A DNA stretch of 18,765 nt from IMG/VR virus record IMGVR_UViG_2663762908_000006. One strand, given 5' to 3'. The notes beneath the pieces were generated by a model that was not told where the DNA came from, did not search any database, and worked only from the letters and a program-made list of their open reading frames with translations. Below, in pieces: positions 1-18,765 of this stretch. The translations under genes were made by a program, and so were the position numbers. Source of the stretch: a virus (lineage: Duplodnaviria; Heunggongvirae; Uroviricota; Caudoviricetes). Numbering within the stretch: the stretch's first letter is position 1; the number at the start of each line of letters is the position of its first letter.

Positions 1-216
1 ATGAAATCCATGGACAAGTTAACAACGGGCATTGCCTACGGCACCTCCGCAGGCAGTGCTGGCTACTGGTTTTTACAGTGGCTTGATCAGGTCAGTCCAT
101 CACAGTGGGCTGCTATTGGTGTGCTGGGAAGTCTGGTTCTGGGCTTTCTGACTTACCTGACGAATCTGTACTTCAAAATAAGAGAAGACAAGCGTAAAGC
201 TGCGCGGGGAGAGTAA
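1..216 (+). CDS. Class II holin (pinholin), S21 family, 71 aa, with dual-start motif
   Basis: Translation [71 protein letters not shown] closely matches my recollection of phage 21 S21 and the K-12 EssQ/EssD holins. Two short TM segments; Met1 and Met4 (MKSM) give the classic antiholin/holin dual start. Sits directly upstream of the SAR endolysin. Confidence 0.85.
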
Positions 217-220
217 TTCA

Positions 221-742
221 ATGACTCAAAACTATGAACTGATTGTGAAAGGGATCCGCAATTTTGAGAATAAAGTTACGGTAACTTTAGCGTTACGGGA
301 CAAAAACCGCTTTGACGGTGAAATTTTTGACCTGGACATCTCGCTGGACCGTGTTGAAGGTGCCGCGCTGGAGTTTTATGAGGCAGCAGCCAGAAGGAGC
401 ATCAGACAGGTCTTCCTGGATGTTGCTGCCGGGTTATGTGAAGGGGATGAGCTGTCGCCGGAAAAGCGCCCCATAATTTTAGAGGCGCAGAATGTGTGGA
501 TAACCTACAAAGGAAAGCTACCGGGAAGAATTACTGGTTCTCTGAAGACGCCACCGACGGCATTGCGGTCAGAAAAAGATGATATTGAATCGCCCATTGA
601 AAAACTGGAGGGCAGCGTCGCTGATCTGAATAAAAAATTGTCGGTGCTGATTCCTTCTGAAGATGAAAAAAAACGCCGCGATGAGCAGTTTGCGGCGTTT
701 TACGATTATTGCATTGAAGTTACTCTCGCAGGAATTTTGTGA
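221..742 (+). CDS. Hypothetical protein inserted between holin and endolysin (position of YdfR/DUF1327 in Qin-like prophages; homology not verified)
   Basis: 173-aa ORF starting 5 nt after the holin stop, with a GGGGAGAG Shine-Dalgarno-like stretch about 10 nt upstream. Composition is protein-like over its full length, including the part overlapped by the antisense ORF. No motif I can assign. Confidence 0.5.
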   Translation: MTQNYELIVKGIRNFENKVTVTLALRDKNRFDGEIFDLDISLDRVEGAALEFYEAAARRSIRQVFLDVAAGLCEGDELSPEKRPIILEAQNVWITYKGKLPGRITGSLKTPPTALRSEKDDIESPIEKLEGSVADLNKKLSVLIPSEDEKKRRDEQFAAFYDYCIEVTLAGIL

Positions 743-982
743 AGATTTTTGAGGAGGGTAAATCTCTTCAGTAAGCTTAATGGCGGACGCTGCAATTAAT
801 TCAGGAAGGTCCGCAAGGTCATCTGTCAGTGGATATGATGAAAAATCGGCGGCAGTTCTGTTAAGAAGCGCTTTAACTAATTCCTTTTCCTTCTCCGGCA
901 ACAAGTTGATTAGAGCTACGACTGCTTGCCTGAGTGCGATTAAATCAGCAAAAGTTTGTTTAGGTAGATTTGTGTAATCCAT
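569..982 (-). CDS. Hypothetical antisense ORF; N-terminal ~80 aa look protein-like, C-terminal ~58 aa overlap the 221-742 gene and look non-coding (possible gene remnant)
   Basis: ATG at 982 is preceded by AGAGG about 7 nt upstream on the - strand. The first ~80 residues (MDYTNLPKQTFADLIALRQAVVALINLLPEKEKELVKALL...) are helical and protein-like. The frame stays open to 569, but that part (…KRRKLLIAAFFFIFRRNQ…FNIIFF) is low-complexity. The region looks AT-rich by eye compared with the flanks. Confidence 0.3.
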   Translation of the reverse strand: MDYTNLPKQTFADLIALRQAVVALINLLPEKEKELVKALLNRTAADFSSYPLTDDLADLPELIAASAIKLTEEIYPPQKSSQNSCESNFNAIIVKRRKLLIAAFFFIFRRNQHRQFFIQISDAALQFFNGRFNIIFF

Positions 983-1095
983 AGTCGCCTCTGTGTTTAT
1001 CAGATTGACATCCTCCTCCCGCCAGTGCCCATCACTGGTGAGGTAAGATTTAACATATCCGGGGATTTGAAGCCGATAAATCCTGATAAATATCC

Positions 1096-2123
<1,028 letters not shown>

Positions 2124-2346
2124 ATTAATATTAAATCGGATTATTTTTAGCGCTGAATGTGAAATTTAAATAAAAAGGACTCTTCCATGAGTCAAAATCC
2201 TTGAAATCTTAAGGGTAAGATAAAAGGTCATTAGACAGAATGACACGTTTTATTAATAAATAAAGCTATTGTTTCATTCGTGTGTTTTTCTTTACAAAAG
2301 TAATCCTTGCTATGGTTGGTTAATCATGCGTTAATGGTGTTCTGGT

Positions 2347-2383
2347 TTGTTACAAAATTATCTGAAGCAGTCATTGTTATAAT
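2347..2383 (+). promoter_or_regulatory. Possible promoter and long AT-rich leader of the cold-shock gene
   Basis: TATAAT at 2378-2383 about 100 nt upstream of the csp start; TTGTTA at 2347-2352 has a poor spacer (25 nt), so the -35 is uncertain. Long AT-rich leaders are typical of cspA-family genes. Confidence 0.2.
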
Positions 2384-2486
2384 TTTATTATTTGTACCTC
2401 TTGAGATTTCCTTGTTGGTTTTTCTCTCTGATATTTTTTTTCGGACCATTCTGCCCAAGGGCTAACTTCTTCAAAAGGTAATAATG

Positions 2487-2699
2487 ATGTCTAACAAAAT
2501 GACTGGTTTAGTGAAATGGTTTAACCCTGAAAAAGGTTTTGGTTTCATCACGCCGAAAGATGGTAGCAAAGATGTGTTTGTCCATTTCTCAGCTATTCAG
2601 AGCAACGATTTCAAAACGTTAACTGAGAATCAGGAAGTCGAATTTGGTATTGAGAACGGACCTAAAGGCCCCGCGGCTGTTCATGTTGTGGCACTTTGA
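2487..2699 (+). CDS. cspI: Cold-shock protein, CspA family (CspI-like)
   Basis: 70 aa from the second Met: [38 protein letters not shown]... carrying RNP1 (KGFGFI) and RNP2 (VFVHF) motifs. Matches my recollection of Qin-prophage CspI. Confidence 0.9.
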
Positions 2700-2898
2700 G
2701 GTAGAAAATATTACAAACCATATTCACTTTAGATGCCCGTGTTGCCATGGTTCTCAGTATAGAACATCATCTTTTGATGTTTCTGACAGGAATCCTTTCG
2801 GGGCAAAATGTATCTTTTGTAAATCAATGATGATTACATTTGATAATATTTCACAATACTTAAATGTTAGCCGTCTATCGTTAGATTTAAGAAAGTGA
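2683..2898 (+). CDS. Small Cys-rich (zinc-ribbon-like) protein, start uncertain
   Basis: ORF overlapping the csp 3' end, with motif C-P-C-C-H-G ... C-I-F-C ([34 protein letters not shown]). Ends 6 nt before a strong intrinsic terminator, so it is probably co-transcribed with the csp gene. No clear SD for ATG 2683; the true start may be non-canonical. May correspond to a known small Qin-prophage protein but I cannot verify. Confidence 0.4.
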
Positions 2899-2903
2899 AA
2901 ATG

Positions 2904-2928
2904 AAGGCTCCTTCGGGAGCTTTTTTGC
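2904..2928 (+). terminator. Rho-independent terminator
   Basis: AAGGCTCC-TTCG-GGAGCTT stem-loop (GC-rich stem, TTCG tetraloop) followed by TTTTTT at 2921-2926. Confidence 0.6.
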
Positions 2929-3046
2929 TTAGTGTCTAGTCGATGGATACTCACATATTACGGTAACATTATGAAAAAAAATAATAGTTTTTTTTAACTC
3001 TGAACCAGCAATGGTAGTGCCAGTGATGACCGGAGTTAACACCATC

Positions 3047-3202
3047 ATGCGTGAATATCCAAATGGCGAAACAACACACCTCACTGTAATGGCTGCAGGG
3101 TTTCCATCTCTGACCGGAGATCATAAAGTCATTTATGTAGCAGCGGATCGACATGTAACTTCAGAAGAAATTCTGGAAGCAGCAATGAGACTCTTGAATT
3201 GA
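3047..3202 (+). CDS. ynfN: Small protein, YnfN-like (51 aa from this start; start uncertain, ORF opens at 3011)
   Basis: ORF 3011-3202. A 51-aa product from Met 3047 (MREYPNGETTHLTVMAAGFPSLTGDHKVIYVAADRHVTSEEILEAAMRLLN) matches the size and position of YnfN between cspI and gnsB in Qin. Assignment is by synteny and recollection only. Confidence 0.5.
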   Translation: MREYPNGETTHLTVMAAGFPSLTGDHKVIYVAADRHVTSEEILEAAMRLLN

Positions 3203-3374
3203 TTTGATTCTAATGCATTGATAATAAATGATAATCATCTTTATCTGTTTGTGTGAAATTTAGACCGTCGTATGTTGATTATTGCGATGTTTCATCTTAT
3301 CTTTTATACGTTTGCTCCATATAATTGACACTACTGTGTACCAGGAAAGTCATAACAGACTAAAAGAGGAAATG

Positions 3375-3548
3375 ATGAACATTGAAGAGTTAAAAACAAA
3401 AACAGAAGCAGATATTTCTGAATATATAACAAAAAAAATCATTGAGCTTAAGAAAAAGACCGGGAAAGAAGTTACCAGTATCCAGTTTACTGCACGGGAA
3501 AAAATGACTGGTCTTGAAAGCTATGATATCAAGATTGATTTAATCTAG
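3375..3548 (+). CDS. gnsB: GnsA/GnsB-family small protein
   Basis: 57 aa: MNIEELKTKTEADISEYITKKIIELKKKTGKEVTSIQFTAREKMTGLESYDIKIDLI, closely resembling K-12 GnsB as I recall it. GAGGA SD at 3366-3370. The Qin-like cspI - ynfN - gnsB order is conserved. Confidence 0.8.
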   Translation: MNIEELKTKTEADISEYITKKIIELKKKTGKEVTSIQFTAREKMTGLESYDIKIDLI

Positions 3549-3608
3549 TCTGTTTAGTATTAGCATCAATTTCTCATCAGATGCTATTCAACAATACAAA
3601 TTACCCAT

Positions 3609-3634
3609 AAACCTCGTTTTTACGGGGTTTTGTT
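3609..3634 (+). terminator. Probable rho-independent terminator after gnsB
   Basis: AAACCTCG / CGGGGTTT stem (one G-U pair) with a T-rich loop, followed by TTTT. Confidence 0.45.
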
Positions 3635-3841
3635 ATATTTAAACATTACCGAATAGGTATAAATCTCGATTGTCGATGGTATTGGTTGTGTGACAATACC
3701 TAGTCTTTCCGGTATGCCTGAAGAGAATACAAACGACAGATTATGTAAGGGAAACGCGCTGAATCTTTAACTCTTTCATGCTGAGTGATTTGACGTTATA
3801 TTTTTAGCCGTAAGTGAAGAGCAAACGCATGGAGCGACAAA

Positions 3842-4048
3842 ATGCATAAAGATCAATACACTGATGCCCCCTCCCAGGAGCAGGTTCGTGTAAAAACTAT
3901 GCTTAATAGCACCATTTCGATGGGTTACCCGGATGTTGTAATTGCATGTATAGAACATCAAGTGTCTCTGGAAGCATTCAGGGCAATTGAGGCCGCGTTA
4001 GTAAAGCACGATAAGAATACGAAGGATTATTCCCTGGTGGTTGACTGA
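3842..4048 (+). CDS. Hypothetical small protein (68 aa)
   Basis: ATG preceded by GGAG about 7 nt upstream; protein-like composition ([58 protein letters not shown]...). Last ORF of the accessory island before the cos region. Family not recognised. Confidence 0.4.
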
Positions 4049-4411
4049 TCACCATAACTGCTAACCATTCTGACCATTTCACAAGTGACAGAGTCAATAT
4101 CGTATTCTGTCACTGTCAGGCTAATACAGCAATGCAATTCAACTACAGCAATGCCTCGTATTTAGGTGAATTTACAATATCGTCCAGTTCGGATGCCGGC
4201 TGCATTTCTGAAGATAAGGCATTTCGGTTCTCGTATTTTCCCCTCATGCTCGTCAGTCCTGCGCGTAGTAAGAAACAGGACACTCACACTAATTTGTGTG
4301 GGCATGCTGTGATGTCCTTCTGAATTATCCCCATGCCATTATGTAAAGCTCTGTTTCAGATGCTCGTCACGGTTGTCAGGCTGTCGGGTCCTCCCAGTGG
4401 GGGTCCCTGCC

Positions 4412-4431
4412 ACGGGGCGGGAGCGTCGCGG
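4412..4431 (+). other. Putative cosN (cohesive-end site), with an IHF-like site at 4478-4490 in a putative cosB
   Basis: ACGGGGCGGGAGCGTCGCGG resembles the lambda cosN region as I recall it (ACGGGGCGGCGACCTCGCGG; left end GGGCGGCGACCT). It lies about 195 bp upstream of the Nu1-like gene, matching lambda spacing. TAATTTATTGATA at 4478-4490 fits the IHF consensus WATCAANNNNTTR on the - strand. Confidence 0.4.
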
Positions 4432-4610
4432 AAAAAGGCTAGTTTTTGCATTTCCATGGCGGCGGCAGCATGTTTGGTAATTTATTGATAATTAAAAGTT
4501 ATTTCTCTTTTCAGCTGTACAATATTTTTTTCTCCCTGTCATTAGACTAGTTTGCAATTAATTGAAATATATAAATAAACCTGATTTTCACCTGCCAGAT
4601 GGAGTTGCTT

Positions 4611-7246: not shown

Positions 7247-7455
7247 ACCAGAATGATATCGAAGCCATGATTCAGCGTTATACGGAAGCTGAAATGGCGG
7301 TGCTGGACGGAAAATCCGTCACCTTTAATGGTCAGCAGATGACCATGGAAAACTTATCTGAGATCCGGCAGGGACGGCAGGAGTGGGAGCGCCGCCTTGC
7401 GGCTCTGATTACACGACGACGGGGGCATCCCGGGTATCGGCTGGCGAGGTTCTGA
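7243..7455 (+). CDS. W: Head-tail joining protein gpW-like
   Basis: 70 aa, start overlapping the TerL stop (ATGA) with GGAGGA 8 nt upstream. C-terminus ...RRRGHPGYRLARF resembles lambda gpW ...RRRGPAGFYV. Lambda gene order A-W-B. Confidence 0.8.
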   Translation: MNQNDIEAMIQRYTEAEMAVLDGKSVTFNGQQMTMENLSEIRQGRQEWERRLAALITRRRGHPGYRLARF

Positions 7456-8963
7456 TGGCAATTCTTGATGATGTGATTGGCGTTTTTTCACCAGGATGGA
7501 AAGCGGCAAGGCTGCGTTCCCGTGCGGTGATCCAGGCTTATGAGGCCGTAAAAACGACGCGGACACACAAAGCCCGACGGGAGAACCGAACTGCCGACCA
7601 GTTAAGCCAGTACGGGGCCGTGTCGTTACGTGAGCAGGCCCGTTACCTTGATAACAACCACGATCTGGTTATTGGTGTATTTGACAAGCTGGAAGAACGG
7701 GTGGTGGGGAAAAACGGGATTATTGTCGAGCCACATCCGGTATTACGCAATGGGGCCATTGCCCGTGACCTGGCTGCGGAGATTCGCACCCGATGGAGTG
7801 AATGGTCTGTCAGCCCGGAAGTCACCGGGCAGTTTACCCGTCCGATGCTGGAACGTCTGATGCTTCGTACCTGGCTGCGCGATGGTGAGGTGTTTGCCCA
7901 GATGGTTTCCGGGCGCATAAACAGCCTGACGCCTTCTGCCGGTGTTCATTTCTGGCTGGAGGCGCTCGAGCCGGACTTTATTCCCATGACCAGTGATGAG
8001 AGCAACAGGCTGAATCAGGGCGTGTTTGTTGATGACTGGGGGCGTCCCGAAAAATATCTGGTGTATAAAAGCCGTCCCGTATCCGGACGGCAGATGGAAA
8101 CCAAAGAAGTGGATGCAGAGCGAATGCTGCATCTTAAATTTGTTCGCCGTCTGCACCAGATGCGCGGGACGTCTTTATTGTCCGGTGTGCTGATCCGCCT
8201 CAGTGCTCTGAAAGAGTATGAAGATTCTGAGCTGACTGCAGCAAGGATCGCCGCTGCTCTGGGGATGTACATCCGGAAAGGCGACGGGCAGAGCTATGAA
8301 GCGGATGGTAATGGCAGCAAGGATAAGGAACGCGAGCTTACCATTCAGCCAGGCATTATTTACGATGATCTGAAACCCGGCGAAGAAATCGGAATGGTGA
8401 AGTCGGATCGCCCCAATCCTAACCTTGAAACTTTTCGTAATGGTCAGTTGCGTGCCGTGGCGGCGGGCAGTCGTCTGAGTTTTTCCAGTACAGCGCGCAA
8501 CTATAACGGCACTTACAGCGCCCAGCGTCAGGAGCTGGTTGAATCCACTGATGGCTACCTGATCCTGCAGGACTGGTTTATTGGTGCCGTCACCCGTCCG
8601 ATGTATCGTGCCTGGCTGAAACAGGCTGTGGCATCCGGTGTTATCAGGCTACCCCGCGATCTTGACCGTTCTTCACTGTATACCGCGGTGTATTCCGGAC
8701 CGGTGATGCCGTGGATTGACCCTGTTAAGGAGGCTGAGGCCTGGAAAATCCAGATTCGTGGTGGAGCGGCGACAGAATCAGACTGGGTACGTGCTGGTGG
8801 TCGTAATCCGGATGATGTCAAACGTCGGCGCAAGGCCGAAATTGATGAAAACCGCAAGCTGGATCTGGTATTTGATACCGATCCGGCCAGTGATAAAGGA
8901 GGCAGCAGTGCCGCAACGAAACGACATGAGCCGCAGCACACCGACGACCAGTCCGAAGAATAA
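7455..8963 (+). CDS. B: Portal protein (lambda gpB family)
   Basis: 502 aa, ATG overlapping the gpW stop (TGATG). Size and position between W and the protease/capsid gene match the lambda portal. Confidence 0.85.
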   Translation: MAILDDVIGVFSPGWKAARLRSRAVIQAYEAVKTTRTHKARRENRTADQLSQYGAVSLREQARYLDNNHDLVIGVFDKLEERVVGKNGIIVEPHPVLRNGAIARDLAAEIRTRWSEWSVSPEVTGQFTRPMLERLMLRTWLRDGEVFAQMVSGRINSLTPSAGVHFWLEALEPDFIPMTSDESNRLNQGVFVDDWGRPEKYLVYKSRPVSGRQMETKEVDAERMLHLKFVRRLHQMRGTSLLSGVLIRLSALKEYEDSELTAARIAAALGMYIRKGDGQSYEADGNGSKDKERELTIQPGIIYDDLKPGEEIGMVKSDRPNPNLETFRNGQLRAVAAGSRLSFSSTARNYNGTYSAQRQELVESTDGYLILQDWFIGAVTRPMYRAWLKQAVASGVIRLPRDLDRSSLYTAVYSGPVMPWIDPVKEAEAWKIQIRGGAATESDWVRAGGRNPDDVKRRRKAEIDENRKLDLVFDTDPASDKGGSSAATKRHEPQHTDDQSEE

Positions 8964-10935
8964 TTCCTGGTTCAGGATGCAGGCTGGTCACCAGAGTGAC
9001 GCGGATATTTATATTTATGACGAGATTGGTTTCTGGGGTGTTACAGCGAAGCAGTTTATCAGTGATCTGAATGCACTGGGCGATATCACCCACATTAATC
9101 TCCATATTAATTCACCGGGTGGCGATGTCTTTGAAGGCATCGCCATTTTTAATGCGCTGAAAACACATGGTGCGTCCATTACCGTTTATGTCGACGGTGT
9201 GGCGGCGTCAATGGCGTCGGTCATTGCGATGGTGGGAAACCCGGTCATTATGCCGGAAAACACCTTCATGATGATTCATAAACCATTTGGCTTTACGGGC
9301 GGTGATGCGGAGGACATGCGCACCTATGCCGACCTGCTCGATAAAGTTGAGGCGGTTCTGTTACCCGCTTATGCACAGAAAACCGGGAAAACCACCGATG
9401 AAATTGCTGCCATGCTGGCGGATGAGACCTGGATGTCCGGTGCCGAATGTCTGGCACATGGATTTGCTGATCAGGTAACGCCAGCCGTTAAGGCAATGGC
9501 ATGTATTCAGTCAAAACGTACAGAGGAATTTAAAAAGATGCCGGAATCCATTCGAAACATGATTACTCCGCCACGCAACAGTGCTCCACGCGTACAGGAT
9601 AATGAACCTGAAGCCTCCCGGACGCCAGTGCAGGCAGCAGCACCCGTGGTGGATGAAAACAGCATCCGTGCGCAGGTACTGGCAGAGCAAAAAGCGCGTG
9701 TAAACGGTATTAATGATCTGTTTGCCATGTTTGGCGGGCGTTATCAGACGCTGCAGGCTCAGTGTCTTGCCGATCCTGAATGTTCGCTGGAGCAGGCCCG
9801 CGAAAAGCTGTTGAACGAGATGGGGCGCGAGTCCACGCCATCCAATAAAAATACCCCGGCTCATATTTATGCCGGTAACGGTAATTTTGTGGGGGACGGG
9901 ATCCGCCAGGCGCTGATGGCGCGTGCCGGATTTGAAAAAACCGAACGTGATAATGTCTACAACGGGATGACCCTGCGTGAATATGCCCGTATGTCACTGA
10001 CTGAACGGGGTATTGGGGTTTCCAGTTATAACCCGATGCAGATGGTCGGTGCGGCGTTCACACACAGTACGTCTGACTTCGGTAATATTCTGCTGGATGT
10101 TGCGAACAAAGCCATTCTGCAGGGCTGGGAAGATGCCCCTGAAACCTATGAACAGTGGACGCGGAAAGGTCAGTTGTCTGATTTTAAAATTGCCCATCGT
10201 GTGGGTATGGGTGGCTTCAGTGCTCTGCGTCAGGTGCGTGAAGGGGCGGAATATAAATACGTCACCACCGGAGATAAACAGGCCACTATTGCACTGGCGA
10301 CCTATGGCGAGCTGTTCAGTATCACCCGTCAGGCCATTATCAATGATGATCTGAATATGCTGACCGATGTCCCGATGAAACTGGGCCGTGCGGCGAAATC
10401 CACTATTGCCGATCTGGTTTATGCCATTCTGACGTCTAACCCGAAAATCTCCACAGATAATGTAAGTCTGTTCGATAAAGCGAAACATGCAAACGTACTG
10501 GAGAGCGCTGCAATGGACGTGGCATCGCTGGATAAAGCCCGCCAGTTGATGCGCGTTCAGAAAGAGGGGGAGCGTCATCTGAATATTCGTCCTGCGTTCG
10601 TACTGGTACCGACGGCGATGGAGTCTGTTGCTAACCAGGTCATTCGCTCCTCAAGTGTCAAGGGGGCTGACATTAACGCCGGTATTATTAACCCGGTGAA
10701 AGATTTTGCGACCGTTATTGCAGAGCCTCGTCTTGATGATAACAGCCAGACCACCTTCTACCTGGCTGCGTCAAAAGGCTCCGATACGATTGAAGTGGCT
10801 TATCTCAACGGTGTGGATACGCCATATATTGATCAGATGGAGGGCTTCAGTGTGGATGGCGTGACAACGAAAGTGCGTATTGACGCCGGTGTCGCGCCAG
10901 TTGATCACCGCGGTCTGGTGAAATGTACGGCGTAA
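8908..10935 (+). CDS. Prohead protease (ClpP/S14-like) with linker and major capsid domain in one ORF
   Basis: GTG start with AAGGAGG 5 nt upstream, overlapping the portal 3' end by 56 nt. N-terminal ~250 aa is ClpP-like (IYIYDEIGFWG..., INSPGGDVFEG, VDGVAASMASVIAMVG...). The middle is Pro/Ala/Gln-rich; the C-terminal ~350 aa resemble Mu-gpT/HK97-type capsid proteins. Replaces the lambda C-Nu3-D-E block. Confidence 0.75.
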   Translation: MPQRNDMSRSTPTTSPKNNSWFRMQAGHQSDADIYIYDEIGFWGVTAKQFISDLNALGDITHINLHINSPGGDVFEGIAIFNALKTHGASITVYVDGVAASMASVIAMVGNPVIMPENTFMMIHKPFGFTGGDAEDMRTYADLLDKVEAVLLPAYAQKTGKTTDEIAAMLADETWMSGAECLAHGFADQVTPAVKAMACIQSKRTEEFKKMPESIRNMITPPRNSAPRVQDNEPEASRTPVQAAAPVVDENSIRAQVLAEQKARVNGINDLFAMFGGRYQTLQAQCLADPECSLEQAREKLLNEMGRESTPSNKNTPAHIYAGNGNFVGDGIRQALMARAGFEKTERDNVYNGMTLREYARMSLTERGIGVSSYNPMQMVGAAFTHSTSDFGNILLDVANKAILQGWEDAPETYEQWTRKGQLSDFKIAHRVGMGGFSALRQVREGAEYKYVTTGDKQATIALATYGELFSITRQAIINDDLNMLTDVPMKLGRAAKSTIADLVYAILTSNPKISTDNVSLFDKAKHANVLESAAMDVASLDKARQLMRVQKEGERHLNIRPAFVLVPTAMESVANQVIRSSSVKGADINAGIINPVKDFATVIAEPRLDDNSQTTFYLAASKGSDTIEVAYLNGVDTPYIDQMEGFSVDGVTTKVRIDAGVAPVDHRGLVKCTA

Positions 10936-10958: not shown

Positions 10959-10978
10959 GGCCCGTAAGGGCTTTTTTT
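10959..10978 (+). terminator. Weak intrinsic terminator after the capsid gene
   Basis: GGCCC-GTAA-GGGCT stem with a GNRA-type loop followed by seven Ts. A second perfect 6-bp hairpin (AGCCCC-TGAAC-GGGGCT, 10991-11007) follows, without a T-run. Confidence 0.4.
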
Positions 10979-11021
10979 GTACCTGAAATCAGCCCCTGAA
11001 CGGGGCTGTGCGGAGACAGTT

Positions 11022-11345
11022 ATGGCAAAGAATTTTGTAGAAGAAGGAAAAACGGTGGCGATTGTTGCCAGTGCAGCCATCAGCAGCGGAGATCTGGTGC
11101 AGGTGGGTGATGTTTTTGCGGTGGCGCTGACCGATATTCCACAGGGTGAAACAGGCGACGGCATGACCGAAGGTGTGTTTATCCTGCCTAAACTGAAAAC
11201 GGATGACATGAAAACGGGTAAGAAGGTTTATCTGAAGTCCGGAAAAGTTCAGCTGACTAACAGCGGCTCTGATCCGCTGGTCGGGGTTGTCTGGGCAGAT
11301 GCCGGAACCAGTGCAGAAGAAGTGCCGGTAAAACTCAATGTCTGA
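11022..11345 (+). CDS. Small head protein (DUF2190-like; at the decoration/FI position)
   Basis: 107 aa from ATG 11022 with GGAG 6 nt upstream; Gly/Val-rich beta-type composition. Lies between the capsid gene and the FII-like gene. Confidence 0.5.
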   Translation: MAKNFVEEGKTVAIVASAAISSGDLVQVGDVFAVALTDIPQGETGDGMTEGVFILPKLKTDDMKTGKKVYLKSGKVQLTNSGSDPLVGVVWADAGTSAEEVPVKLNV

Positions 11346-17516: not shown

Positions 17517-17882
17517 ATGCAGGATATTCCACAGGAAACACATCATGAGACGACACGCCTCACTCAGTCAGCCCAGGTGGTGCTCTGGGAAATCGATCTG
17601 ACAGTGGTCGGTGGAGAACGTTATTTTTTCTGTAATGAGCAGAACGAAAAAGGTGAGCCGATCACCTGGCAGGGGCGACAGTATCAGGCGTATCCCATTC
17701 AGGGGACGGGATTTGAACTGAACGGCAAGGGCAGTGCTGCCCGTCCGACACTGACGGTTTCTAACCTGCACGGCATGGTCACCGCGATGGCGGAAGACCT
17801 GCAGAGTCTGGTCGGAGGAACGGTGGTCCGGCGTAAGGTTTACGCCCGTTTTCTGGATGCGGTGAACTTCGTCAACGGAAAC
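17517..17882 (+). CDS. L: Minor tail protein gpL, 3'-truncated by the assembly gap
   Basis: AGGAG SD. The first 122 aa are highly similar to lambda gpL (MQDI-QET..., SVVLWEIDLT-VGGERYFFCNEQNEKGEP-TWQGRQYQ-YPIQG-GFELNGKG---RPTLTVSNL-GMVT-MAED-QSLVGGTVVRRKVYARFLDAVNFVNGN). The ORF runs into the N run at 17883. Confidence 0.85.
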
Positions 17883-17892
17883 NNNNNNNNNN
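17883..17892. other. Assembly gap (run of 10 N)
   Basis: Ten consecutive n characters. Phage sequence (gpL) on one side, chromosomal dnaQ-downstream sequence on the other. Confidence 0.95.
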
Positions 17893-17920
17893 GCGTTGTG
17901 TTCCGTTGGGAACGAGGCGA

Positions 17921-17949
17921 ATATTACGGATTGCCTCGACCTTCGTCAA
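17921..17949 (-). promoter_or_regulatory. Sigma70 promoter-like element on the - strand (TTGACG-17 nt-TAATAT, GC-rich discriminator), likely a tRNA promoter whose gene falls in or beyond the gap
   Basis: The - strand reads TTGACG (17944-17949), a 17-nt spacer, TAATAT (17921-17926), then the GC-rich TCGCCTCG. In E. coli a tRNA-Asp gene (aspV) lies just downstream of dnaQ, but no tRNA sequence is present between 17893 and 17920. Confidence 0.4.
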
Positions 17950-18024
17950 CGGTTTTTCTCATCTTTTGAATCGTTTGCTGCAAAAATCGCCCAAGTCGCT
18001 ATTTTTAGCGCCTTTTACAGGTAT

Positions 18025-18756
18025 TTATGCCCGCCAGAGGCAGCTTCCGCCCTTCTTCTGCACCAGATCAAGACGGGCTTCATGTGCTGCAAGCTCGTCA
18101 TCTGTCGCAAAAACAACGCGTAACTTACTTGCCTGACGTACAATGCGCTGAATTGTTGCTTCACCTTGTTGCTGTTGTGTCTCTCCTTCCATCGCAAAAG
18201 CCATCGACGTTTGACCACCGGTCATCGCCAGATAAACTTCCGCAAGGATCTGGGCATCGAGTAATGCCCCGTGTAGCGTTCGTTTACTGTTATCTATTTC
18301 GTAGCGGGCACATAACGCATCGAGGCTGTTGCGCTTACCAGGAAACATTTTCCTCGCCACCGCAAGGCTATCGGTGACCTTACAGAAGGTATTGGTCTTC
18401 GGAATATCGCGCTTAAGCAACGAAAACTCGTAGTCCATAAAGCCGATATCGAACGCTGCGTTATGGATCACCAACTCCGCGCCGCGGATATAGTCCATGA
18501 ACTCATCGGCTACTTCGGCAAACGTGGGCTTATCGAGCAAAAATTCATCGGCAATACCATGTACGCCAAAGGCTTCCGGATCCACCAGCCGATCGGGTTT
18601 GAGATAAACATGGAAGTTATTGCCCGTCAGGCGACGGTTCACCACTTCAACGGCACCAATCTCAATGATCTTGTGGCCTTCATAGTGCGCACCAATCTGG
18701 TTCATACCGGTGGTTTCGGTATCGAGAACGATCTGGCGTGTAATTGCAGTGCTCAT
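18025..18756 (-). CDS. dnaQ: DNA polymerase III epsilon subunit (3'-5' proofreading exonuclease)
   Basis: The translation matches E. coli DnaQ as I recall it from MSTAITRQIVLDTETTGMNQ... to ...KKGGSCLWRA, 243 aa, with the DEDDh exonuclease motifs. An in-frame ATG also sits at 18763-18765 at the window edge. Confidence 0.95.
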   Translation of the reverse strand: MSTAITRQIVLDTETTGMNQIGAHYEGHKIIEIGAVEVVNRRLTGNNFHVYLKPDRLVDPEAFGVHGIADEFLLDKPTFAEVADEFMDYIRGAELVIHNAAFDIGFMDYEFSLLKRDIPKTNTFCKVTDSLAVARKMFPGKRNSLDALCARYEIDNSKRTLHGALLDAQILAEVYLAMTGGQTSMAFAMEGETQQQQGEATIQRIVRQASKLRVVFATDDELAAHEARLDLVQKKGGSCLWRA

Positions 18757-18765
18757 AGCGGTCAT

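What the first reader, a model, noticed from the sequence alone, without database searches (positions are those of the whole stretch)
8908..10935. Protease, linker and major capsid domains encoded as one 675-aa ORF instead of the lambda C/Nu3/D/E genes
Packaging and tail genes are lambda-like, but the head block is replaced by one long ORF with an N-terminal ClpP-like protease domain, a Pro/Ala/Gln-rich linker (possible scaffold) and a C-terminal capsid domain. The head module is therefore mosaic. The gene starts at GTG with a strong SD inside the portal 3' end (56-nt overlap). If translated as one chain, the capsid would be released by autoproteolysis.
Basis: partly seen in the sequence, partly recalled or inferred. 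Interest (0 to 1): 0.5.

Follow-up and report, generated by a model that had tools for sequence, protein, structure and literature searches.

The report
Known fused protease-scaffold-capsid phage gene
This long gene of an E. coli prophage encodes the head-maturation protease, a scaffold-like middle part and the major capsid protein as one chain; the arrangement is real, but it was described for Salmonella phage Gifsy-2 in 2010, is already named in standard annotation and is very common.

Summary
Window 8908-10935 (+) is an intact 675-codon ORF. It starts at GTG 8908, 5 nt after AAAGGAGG, and overlaps the portal gene by 56 nt. Residues 31-191 are a ClpP-fold serine protease; Ser101 and His124 are invariant in 53 of 53 diverse relatives. 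Residues 220-246 are a variable Pro/Ala-rich linker. Residues 250-385 are helical and scaffold-like. Residues ~386-675 are an HK97-fold capsid protein of the Mu gpT / Phage_capsid_4 type.

- The protein scores 985.9 bits (cutoff 475) on NCBIfam NF045540, [quoted passage not shown].
- It is 70% identical and colinear with the Gifsy-2 "tripartite capsid gene" (Effantin et al. 2010).
- It is at least 99% identical to genes of isolated phages mEp460, cdtI and Ayreon.
- It occurs in 2017 of 5426 complete E. coli genomes.
- More than 100 distinct 50%-identity clusters keep the same full-length architecture.

A frameshift artefact is excluded. A family-wide internal restart is not supported. One correction: the head block is not one ORF alone, because a separate decoration (cement) gene follows at 11022-11345. 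Verdict: already known, low interest.

The parts
7455..8963 (+). Portal gene (lambda family). Its last 56 nt overlap the start of the fusion gene.
   Evidence: PF05136 E 5.9e-82. TIGR01539 458 bits against a cutoff of 172.7. Same coordinates in the mEp460 and PGAP annotations.
8895..8902 (+). Shine-Dalgarno sequence AAAGGAGG, 5 nt before GTG 8908.
   Evidence: Read directly. dG -11.6 kcal/mol. The identical motif plus GTG is conserved in phage 1720a-02, which is only 78% identical in DNA. Analogous SD+ATG arrangements occur upstream of the SW(F/Y) motif in Gifsy-2 and F10.
8908..10935 (+). ClpP-like prohead protease / scaffold-like region / major capsid protein fusion gene (675 aa, 73.6 kDa).
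   Evidence: NF045540 985.9 bits, cutoff 475. phrog_133 matched end to end. 70% identity over the full length to Gifsy-2 STM1034.3n. PGAP annotates the same coordinates in CP029164.
8998..9480 (+). ClpP-fold serine protease domain (residues 31-191). Catalytic Ser101 is codon 9208-9210 (TCA) and His124 is codon 9277-9279 (CAT). Glu173 sits at the position of the ClpP Asp.
9493..9564 (+). Conserved segment after the protease (residues 196-219, AMACIQSKRTEEFKKMPESIRNMI). Ala198 and Pro212 are nearly invariant across the family. Function unknown.
   Evidence: A198 48/53 and P212 52/53. Model pLDDT about 70, with short helices at 203-207 and 213-219.
9565..9645 (+). Variable, disordered Pro/Ala-rich linker (residues 220-246).
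   Evidence: Length and sequence vary, with indels, even among relatives 75-96% identical. pLDDT <50. Composition.
9655..9828 (+). Three-helix bundle-like domain (residues 250-307), the scaffold / delta-domain candidate.
   Evidence: Helices 250-273, 280-288 and 294-307 with pLDDT 86-96. R264 is invariant. No Pfam family covers it. The other fusion families NF045541 and phrog_4523 match from about residue 210-223 to the end.
9853..9879 (+). Second low-confidence segment (residues 316-324), one candidate region for the maturation cleavage.
   Evidence: pLDDT <50 between two confident regions. Gifsy-2 has an 8-residue insertion here. That cleavage occurs here is inference only.
10063..10932 (+). 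HK97-fold major capsid domain proper (residues ~386-675, about 32 kDa). The Pfam capsid match starts at residue 377. Helices 327-385 upstream may be scaffold or an extended N-arm.
10959..10979 (+). Terminator-like hairpin plus T-run directly after the fusion gene.
   Evidence: Annotated as a rho-independent terminator at the same place in the mEp460 record.
11022..11345 (+). Head decoration / cement protein gene (107 aa), the functional counterpart of lambda D.
   Evidence: PF09956 E 1.3e-20 and phrog_122 'head decoration' E 1.4e-46. 61% identical to the gene after the Gifsy-2 fusion gene. [quoted passage not shown]

Best explanation
The ORF is the Gifsy-2-type 'tripartite capsid gene' of a lambdoid E. 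coli prophage of the mEp460/cdtI group.

Shown here:
- One translation product of 675 aa carries an N-terminal ClpP-fold Ser/His protease, a flexible linker, a helical scaffold-like centre and a C-terminal HK97-fold coat protein of the Mu gpT type.

Inferred from homology and from the Gifsy-2 literature:
- The full-length chains co-assemble on the lambda-type portal into a T=7 procapsid, with the protease and scaffold parts inside.
- The protease then cuts away everything N-terminal of the coat domain, somewhere between about residue 310 and 390.
- The fragments leave, the shell expands during DNA packaging, and trimers of the separately encoded cement protein (11022-11345) bind the 3-fold positions.
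For: - ORF, start and overlap.
- Domains: PF00574 at 31-191, PF25209 at 377-672; phrog_133 full length; NF045540 985.9 bits against a cutoff of 475.
- Homology to the characterised gene: (70% identity, colinear, to Gifsy-2 STM1034.3n), with the same gene order of portal, fusion gene and decoration gene.
[quoted passage not shown] 2010)' (PMC12315714). The title and the trimeric decoration protein are cited in PMC8538268.
- Functional phages carry the same gene at 99.1% identity or more: mEp460, cdtI, Ayreon, HannyBb, phi458, Tritos.
- Conservation of the architecture: 2017 of 5426 complete E. coli genomes; 80 phage records with at least 80% protein coverage, including Pseudomonas phage F10 at 57%; more than 100 50%-identity clusters matching residues ~20-672 at 35-50% identity.
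- Catalytic residues: Ser101 and His124 in 53/53.
Against: - Nothing here shows translation, cleavage or assembly for this copy.
- The position of the maturation cleavage is not known to me; the full text of Effantin et al. 2010 was not available.
- The third triad position is Glu173, not Asp, and is not invariant.
- The prophage similarity in this window stops at 17882 inside tail gene L and is followed by dnaQ. This particular copy may therefore sit in a truncated prophage, or at an assembly junction.
Confidence: 0.93

Rival explanations
1. The long ORF is an artefact: a frameshift or sequencing error has merged separate protease and capsid genes.
For: Gene-merging frameshifts do occur at this locus. 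At least ten database ORFs of 1159 aa fuse portal, protease and capsid. In one of them the cause is a 1-nt deletion at window 8913.
Against: The same uninterrupted 675-aa frame is present at 98.5% identity or more in 16 phage records and in about 1500 complete E. coli genomes. It is kept at 35-57% protein identity across more than 100 clusters and other genera. It has dedicated PHROG and NCBIfam models of full length.
Confidence: 0.01
2. Most capsid subunits are made without the protease, from an internal in-frame start at Met211 (ATG 9538). This would resemble lambda Nu3 nested inside C, and would give an HK97-gp5-like scaffold-coat protein of 50.7 kDa. The full-length chain would be a minor species that supplies the protease.
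For: Met211 is invariant in 22 enterobacterial relatives. It is preceded by an SD-like (G/C)AGGA(A/G) 9-10 nt upstream in the window, 1720a-02, Gifsy-2 and F10, with dG -6 to -8.8 kcal/mol. Protease-less proteins of 443-468 aa that hold only the centre and coat parts exist in the family (P0166, P0229).
Against: Across 53 diverse members this column is Met in only 5, whereas the next residue, Pro212, is kept in 52. The conservation is therefore a protein motif. The SD-like bases are the codons of the conserved Glu-Glu-Phe. Spacing is long and pairing is much weaker than at 8908. No in-frame start near the capsid domain has a good SD.
Confidence: 0.07
3. The N-terminal domain is a catalytically dead ClpP-like module that serves only as an internal scaffold, and cleavage is done by a host protease or another phage protease.
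For: The canonical Asp of the ClpP triad is replaced by Glu173, and that column is not invariant.
Against: Ser101 and His124 are invariant in 53/53 diverse members, and the GxSxxS and MIH(K/N)P contexts are conserved. No other prohead protease gene lies between portal and tail genes. NF045542, 'head maturation protease, ClpP-related', matches at 215.7 bits against a cutoff of 120.
Confidence: 0.03
4. The gene is what it seems, but this copy is a relic in a truncated prophage and cannot by itself give infectious particles.
For: Prophage similarity ends at 17882. The tail gene L ORF (17517-17969) keeps only 95 of 206 profile positions. From 17893 the sequence is 100% identical to the dnaQ region. 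None of 5426 complete genomes spans the junction.
Against: The fusion ORF and all head genes upstream are intact, and the fusion ORF is identical to that of CP029164, whose prophage continues through L, K, I and J. The junction could be an assembly artefact or a window-construction artefact.
Confidence: 0.4

Closest known systems
Salmonella phage Gifsy-2 tripartite capsid gene (STM1034.3n / STM1033; Effantin et al. 2010, Virology 402:355, PMID 20427067)
   Same: The order of ClpP-like protease, central ~200-residue region and coat protein in one ORF is the same. Identity is 70% over the full length. Both overlap the preceding lambda-type portal gene, are followed by a homologous 107-aa decoration gene (61% identity), and sit among lambda-like packaging and tail genes.
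   Different: The N-terminal ~20 residues and the linker differ in sequence and length. Gifsy-2 has an 8-residue insertion near window residue 316 and Lys instead of Asp172. Host differs: E. coli versus Salmonella.
E. coli phages mEp460, cdtI, Ayreon, HannyBb, phi458, Tritos (same gene); NCBIfam NF045540; PHROG 133
   Same: DNA identity is 99.1-99.7% over the whole gene. The protein is a member of the curated family model.
   Different: Only the annotation differs. Records call it 'protease/scaffold protein', 'head maturation protease', 'Nu3' or 'major head protein'. The mEp460 GenBank record starts it at ATG 8977 (Met24) rather than GTG 8908.
HK97 gp5 (delta-domain scaffold fused to coat protein) with separate gp4 protease
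   Same: A scaffold-like N-terminal part is covalently attached to an HK97-fold coat protein and removed by a prohead protease. This is established knowledge; the fold similarity is.
   Different: The HK97 protease is a separate gene of another family (S78). No PF04586 or PF05065 hit was found here. HK97 uses covalent cross-links instead of a decoration protein.
Lambda C / Nu3 / D / E head genes
   Same: Same position in the genome, between portal B and the head-tail joining and tail genes. Same overall logic: protease plus scaffold, a T=7 shell and a trimeric stabiliser.
   Different: In lambda the protease and scaffold are nested genes, and E and D are separate genes of other sequence families. 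None of those families was detected here.
Pseudomonas phage JBD30 gp38 / Mu gpT-type capsid proteins (PDB 8RKC, 8RKX)
   Same: This is the closest solved structure of the coat domain by sequence profile (E 2e-14). It has the canonical HK97 fold and is decorated by minor capsid protein trimers (PMC11445458).
   Different: In JBD30 the scaffold (gp33) and prohead protease (gp37) are separate genes, and the coat protein is only ~300 aa.
NCBIfam NF045541 / PHROG 4523 'prohead protease/major capsid protein fusion'
   Same: The central and coat parts (residues ~210-674) match these other fusion families: 400.6 bits and E 1.2e-112.
   Different: The match excludes the N-terminal ~200 residues, and the score is below that family's cutoff of 525, so the protease module differs.

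Membership tests
ClpP-like prohead protease/major capsid protein fusion (NF045540; Gifsy-2-type tripartite capsid gene) | Whole-protein score above the curated cutoff of the family model | tested here: met
   985.9 bits against a cutoff of 475, covering residues 32-674 of the protein and 2-651 of 652 model positions. phrog_133 matches positions 3-667 of 668.
ClpP-like prohead protease/major capsid protein fusion (NF045540; Gifsy-2-type tripartite capsid gene) | Single uninterrupted ORF with a ClpP-like domain at the N-terminus and a coat domain at the C-terminus, colinear with the Gifsy-2 gene | tested here: met
   (70% identity over residues 18-674).
ClpP-like prohead protease/major capsid protein fusion (NF045540; Gifsy-2-type tripartite capsid gene) | Synteny: lambda-family portal upstream (overlapping) and DUF2190/cement decoration gene downstream | tested here: met
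ClpP-like prohead protease/major capsid protein fusion (NF045540; Gifsy-2-type tripartite capsid gene) | Proteolytic removal of the protease and central parts, leaving a mature coat protein in a T=7 decorated capsid | not testable with these tools
   Needs virion proteomics or cryo-EM. Known for Gifsy-2 only from the literature (details of the abstract from my own knowledge).
ClpP / peptidase clan SK (family S14) fold | ClpP alpha/beta fold | tested here: met
ClpP / peptidase clan SK (family S14) fold | Catalytic Ser and His at the ClpP positions | tested here: met
   Ser101 aligns with the ClpP GMAASMG Ser, and His124 with the IHQP His. Both are 53/53.
ClpP / peptidase clan SK (family S14) fold | Asp as the third triad residue | tested here: inconclusive
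   The aligned position is Glu173 (E 43, D 6, T 3, V 1 of 53). The neighbouring Asp172 is not conserved.
ClpP / peptidase clan SK (family S14) fold | Double-heptamer barrel working with a Clp ATPase | not tested
   Not expected for prohead proteases. No oligomer modelling was done.
HK97-fold major capsid protein, Mu gpT / Phage_capsid_4 type | Sequence membership in PF25209 / PF10124 | tested here: met
   186.2 bits (cutoff 27) and 33.4 bits (cutoff 20.1).
HK97-fold major capsid protein, Mu gpT / Phage_capsid_4 type | HK97 fold (N-arm, E-loop, spine helix, A and P domains) shared with solved capsids | tested here: met
Lambda head module (gpC S49 protease, Nu3, gpD, gpE) | Sequence membership in the lambda gpC, gpE or gpD families | tested here: not met
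   The Pfam scan at E<=0.01 lists none of Peptidase_S49, Phage_cap_E or the gpD family for the fusion protein or the decoration protein.
HK97 gp4/gp5 system | S78 prohead protease and PF05065-type coat protein with delta domain | tested here: not met
   No such Pfam hits. The resemblance is functional (scaffold fused to coat) and at fold level only.

The most novel reading that the evidence does not exclude
In the enterobacterial/Pseudomonas branch of the family, a second, internal in-frame initiation at Met211 (ATG 9538, with GAGGA 9-10 nt upstream) produces a protease-less scaffold-coat protein. One gene would then yield two products, as lambda C/Nu3 does, and the ratio of the two starts would set the number of protease copies per procapsid. 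The highly conserved A198...F208...P212 segment would be the tether or cleavage motif that separates the two functional units.
Probability: 0.07. Interest if true: 0.35.

Novelty: already known. Interest (0 to 1): 0.08.

Why it matters
It has little value as a discovery. The fused protease/scaffold/coat gene was characterised structurally in Gifsy-2 in 2010, has curated family models and is among the commonest prophage head genes in E. coli.

It is useful as an annotation lesson. Phage records name this gene inconsistently: protease, scaffold, Nu3 or major head. The coat protein of such phages can therefore look 'missing' (PMC8814770 could not retrieve an HK97-fold MCP for Gifsy-2).

Open details remain: the exact cleavage sites, whether cleavage is in cis or in trans, how 415 covalently attached proteases are accommodated, and whether any internal start exists. 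These could be settled easily with the isolated phages mEp460 or Ayreon.

Tried and rejected
- First structure prediction, with 22 close relatives (75-96% identity): mean pLDDT 35.9 and unusable. Repeating it with 71 diverse family members gave pLDDT 85.7.
- Full text of Effantin et al. 2010 is not held, and neither are two HK97-fold reviews. Several literature searches returned only reference-list mentions. Only PMC12315714 and PMC8538268 describe the Gifsy-2 gene or capsid in their text.
- Internal restart: scanning all in-frame ATG/GTG/TTG for SD pairing found nothing near the capsid domain start. The only conserved candidate, Met211, fails in the wider family.
- The alternative annotated start ATG 8977 (Met24, mEp460 record) is rejected as the main start. 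Ser20 and Trp21 upstream are conserved. Position 24 is Ile in Gifsy-2, and neither Gifsy-2 nor F10 has an in-frame start there. 1720a-02 keeps the same SD+GTG.
- Proteins matched in two stretches (P0129, P0141 and others) were suspected of carrying a different protease. Pfam shows they are ClpP fusions with longer linkers.
Full report
**Observation.** The window holds an open frame on the + strand from 8716 to the stop at 10933-10935. Within it, GTG at 8908 is preceded by AAAGGAGG (8895-8902) at a 5-nt spacing. This is the only in-frame start with a full AGGAGG match and has the best predicted anti-SD pairing, -11.6 kcal/mol. Translation gives 675 residues without a stop.

**Start codon.** The GenBank record of phage mEp460 starts the gene at ATG 8977 (Met24), after the portal stop. 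Several results favour GTG 8908 instead:
- PGAP uses GTG 8908.
- Phage 1720a-02, only 78% identical in DNA, keeps the same AAAGGAGG-N5-GTG.
- Ser20 and Trp21, upstream of Met24, are conserved across relatives.
- Position 24 is Ile in Gifsy-2, and neither Gifsy-2 nor Pseudomonas phage F10 has an in-frame start codon there. Both have an SD plus ATG further upstream.

GTG 8908 is the best-supported start, but no experiment was available.

**Domains by sequence.**
- Pfam gives CLP_protease at 31-191 (E 2.8e-36) and Phage_capsid_4 at 377-672 (E 1.8e-54), with a weaker Mu-like_gpT hit.
- PHROG 133 (668 positions) matches end to end.
- NCBIfam NF045540, 'ClpP-like prohead protease/major capsid protein fusion protein', scores 985.9 bits against a cutoff of 475. 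NF045542, 'head maturation protease, ClpP-related', covers residues 32-190.
- None of the lambda head families (gpC/S49, gpE, gpD) appears.
- The genes around it are lambda-like: DUF1441 small terminase, GpA large terminase, a small W-position protein, a lambda-family portal, and tail genes equivalent to Z, U, V, G, T, H, M and L.
- The gene after the ORF (11022-11345) is a head decoration/cement protein (PF09956, phrog_122).

So the head block is two genes, not one.

**Catalytic residues.** In alignments to ClpP structures, Ser101 falls on the GMAASMG serine and His124 on the IHQP histidine. In 53 diverse family members (34-69% identical to the window protein) both are invariant. The position of the ClpP Asp is Glu173 (E 43, D 6, other 4). 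Asp172 is not conserved. The protease is therefore very probably active, at least as a Ser/His enzyme.

**Structure.** A first model from 22 close relatives failed, with pLDDT 35.9. A model from 71 diverse relatives has mean pLDDT 85.7.
- Confident regions are 19-219, 247-315 and 325-675.
- Low-confidence segments are 1-18, 220-246 and 316-324.
- A profile of the C-terminal part hits the solved capsid protein of phage JBD30 (8rkc/8rkx, E 2e-14), with JBD30 residues 10-12 aligned to Leu395.
- JBD30 gp38 has the canonical HK97 fold, and its N-arm (residues 6-25) is a helix in the procapsid (PMC11445458). This corresponds to helix 391-409 here.

The HK97 fold proper therefore starts near residue 386. 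The ~190 residues between protease and coat comprise:
- a conserved tail, 196-219 (Ala198 48/53, Pro212 52/53);
- a variable Pro/Ala-rich linker, 220-246;
- a three-helix domain, 250-307;
- a second flexible stretch, 316-324;
- three more helices, 327-385.

This matches the '~200-residue central domain' that I recall from the Gifsy-2 abstract (my own knowledge, not checked against the text).

**Identity with what is known.**
- The protein is 70% identical and colinear with the Gifsy-2 gene STM1034.3n, which likewise overlaps its portal gene by 86 nt. The following decoration genes are 61% identical.
[quoted passage not shown] 2010; reference seen).
[quoted passage not shown] - The window's gene is 99.1-99.9% identical to that of isolated phages vB_EcoS-569R4, Ayreon, HannyBb, mEp460, phi458, cdtI and Tritos.
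- It is 100% identical to a gene PGAP annotates as 'ClpP-like prohead protease/major capsid protein fusion protein'.
- It occurs at at least 80% coverage in 2017 of 5426 complete E. coli genomes.
- In a library of 50%-identity representatives, more than 100 clusters of 640-700 aa match residues ~20-672 at 35-50% identity. Eighty phage records cover at least 80% of the protein, including Pseudomonas phage F10 at 57%.

The architecture is old, widespread and under selection. That excludes a frameshift artefact.

**Internal restart.** No in-frame start near the capsid domain has a usable SD. One candidate stands out: Met211. It has an SD-like AGGA 9-10 nt upstream in the window, 1720a-02, Gifsy-2 and F10, and it is invariant in 22 enterobacterial relatives. 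In the wider family, however, this column is Met in only 5 of 53, while the adjacent Pro212 is kept in 52 of 53. The purine-rich bases are the codons of the conserved Glu-Glu. I therefore read this as a conserved protein motif, not a start site, and give the nested-gene idea about 7%.

**Mechanism (inferred).** Full-length 73.6 kDa chains assemble on the portal, with the protease and scaffold parts inside. The Ser101/His124 protease removes everything N-terminal of the coat domain; the flexible stretches 220-246 and 316-324 and the region up to ~385 are the candidate cut zones. This leaves a coat protein of about 32-38 kDa. Expansion and binding of cement trimers then follow. Only the sequence, fold and homology steps are shown here. 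Cleavage and assembly rest on the Gifsy-2 work and on general knowledge of HK97-like maturation.

**Context caveat.** Similarity to prophages ends at 17882, inside tail gene L, which keeps only 95 of 206 profile positions. From 17893 the window is 100% identical to the dnaQ region, and no complete E. coli genome spans this junction. This copy may lie in a truncated prophage, or the junction may be an assembly or construction artefact.

**Verdict.** It is an ordinary member of a well-known and already named family, so it is already known and of low interest.

Noticed in passing
window 17882-17893 (and 17517-18765): Prophage similarity stops at 17882 inside the minor tail protein L gene; the ORF 17517-17969 keeps only the first 95 of 206 positions of PF05100. 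From 17893 the sequence is 100% identical to the E. coli dnaQ region on the minus strand. None of 5426 complete E. coli genomes spans this junction, so it is a truncated prophage, a rearrangement, or an assembly/construction artefact.
   Followed up: partly
window 8913; L005 (GCA_012637905.1) 501-3980: Public databases hold at least ten separate 1159-aa ORFs that fuse portal, ClpP protease and capsid (P0005, P0008-P0017). In L005 the cause is deletion of one G (window 8913), 5 nt after GTG 8908 in the portal/protease overlap. This reads the portal through into the protease-capsid frame and sends the GTG-started frame into the portal stop. Whether this is a real lineage mutation or a recurrent error was not resolved.
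   Followed up: partly
window 10959-10979: A GC-rich hairpin followed by a T-run lies directly after the fusion gene and before the decoration gene. It is annotated as a rho-independent terminator in phage mEp460. Presumably it is read through under late antitermination, or it lowers expression of downstream genes relative to the coat gene.
   Followed up: no
window 9493-9564 (residues 196-219): The segment AMACIQSKRTEEFKKMPESIRNMI, between the protease fold and the variable linker, is strongly conserved. Ala198 and Pro212 are nearly invariant even at 35% overall identity. Its role is unknown; a tether, a cleavage site or a targeting motif are possible.
   Followed up: partly
window 8977 versus 8908: Phage records disagree on the start and the name of this gene. 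mEp460 starts it at ATG 8977 (652 aa), whereas PGAP starts it at GTG 8908 (675 aa). Product names range over 'protease/scaffold', 'Nu3', 'head-tail preconnector protease C' and 'major head protein'.
   Followed up: yes
window 1-4600: The left part of the window is a Qin-like late-region cassette: essD holin, ydfR, rrrQ lysozyme, rzpQ, cold-shock cspI, ynfQ, ynfR, ynfN and gnsB. This follows the PGAP annotation of CP029164, whose fusion gene is identical to the window's; I did not align the left part itself, and the window may differ there. The ORF at 221-742 carries DUF1327.
   Followed up: no
database proteins P0068, P0076, P0077, P0019, P0090, P0084, P0086: Several E. coli database ORFs join part of this protease-capsid gene to tail protein L, terminase or tail-fibre domains. 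P0068, for example, is seen on 37 contigs. This suggests recurrent internal deletions in resident prophages of this type.
   Followed up: no
P0166 (443 aa), P0229 (468 aa): Some family members consist only of the central helical region plus the coat domain, with no ClpP domain, like HK97 gp5. They may be genuine unfused versions or truncated gene calls.
   Followed up: partly
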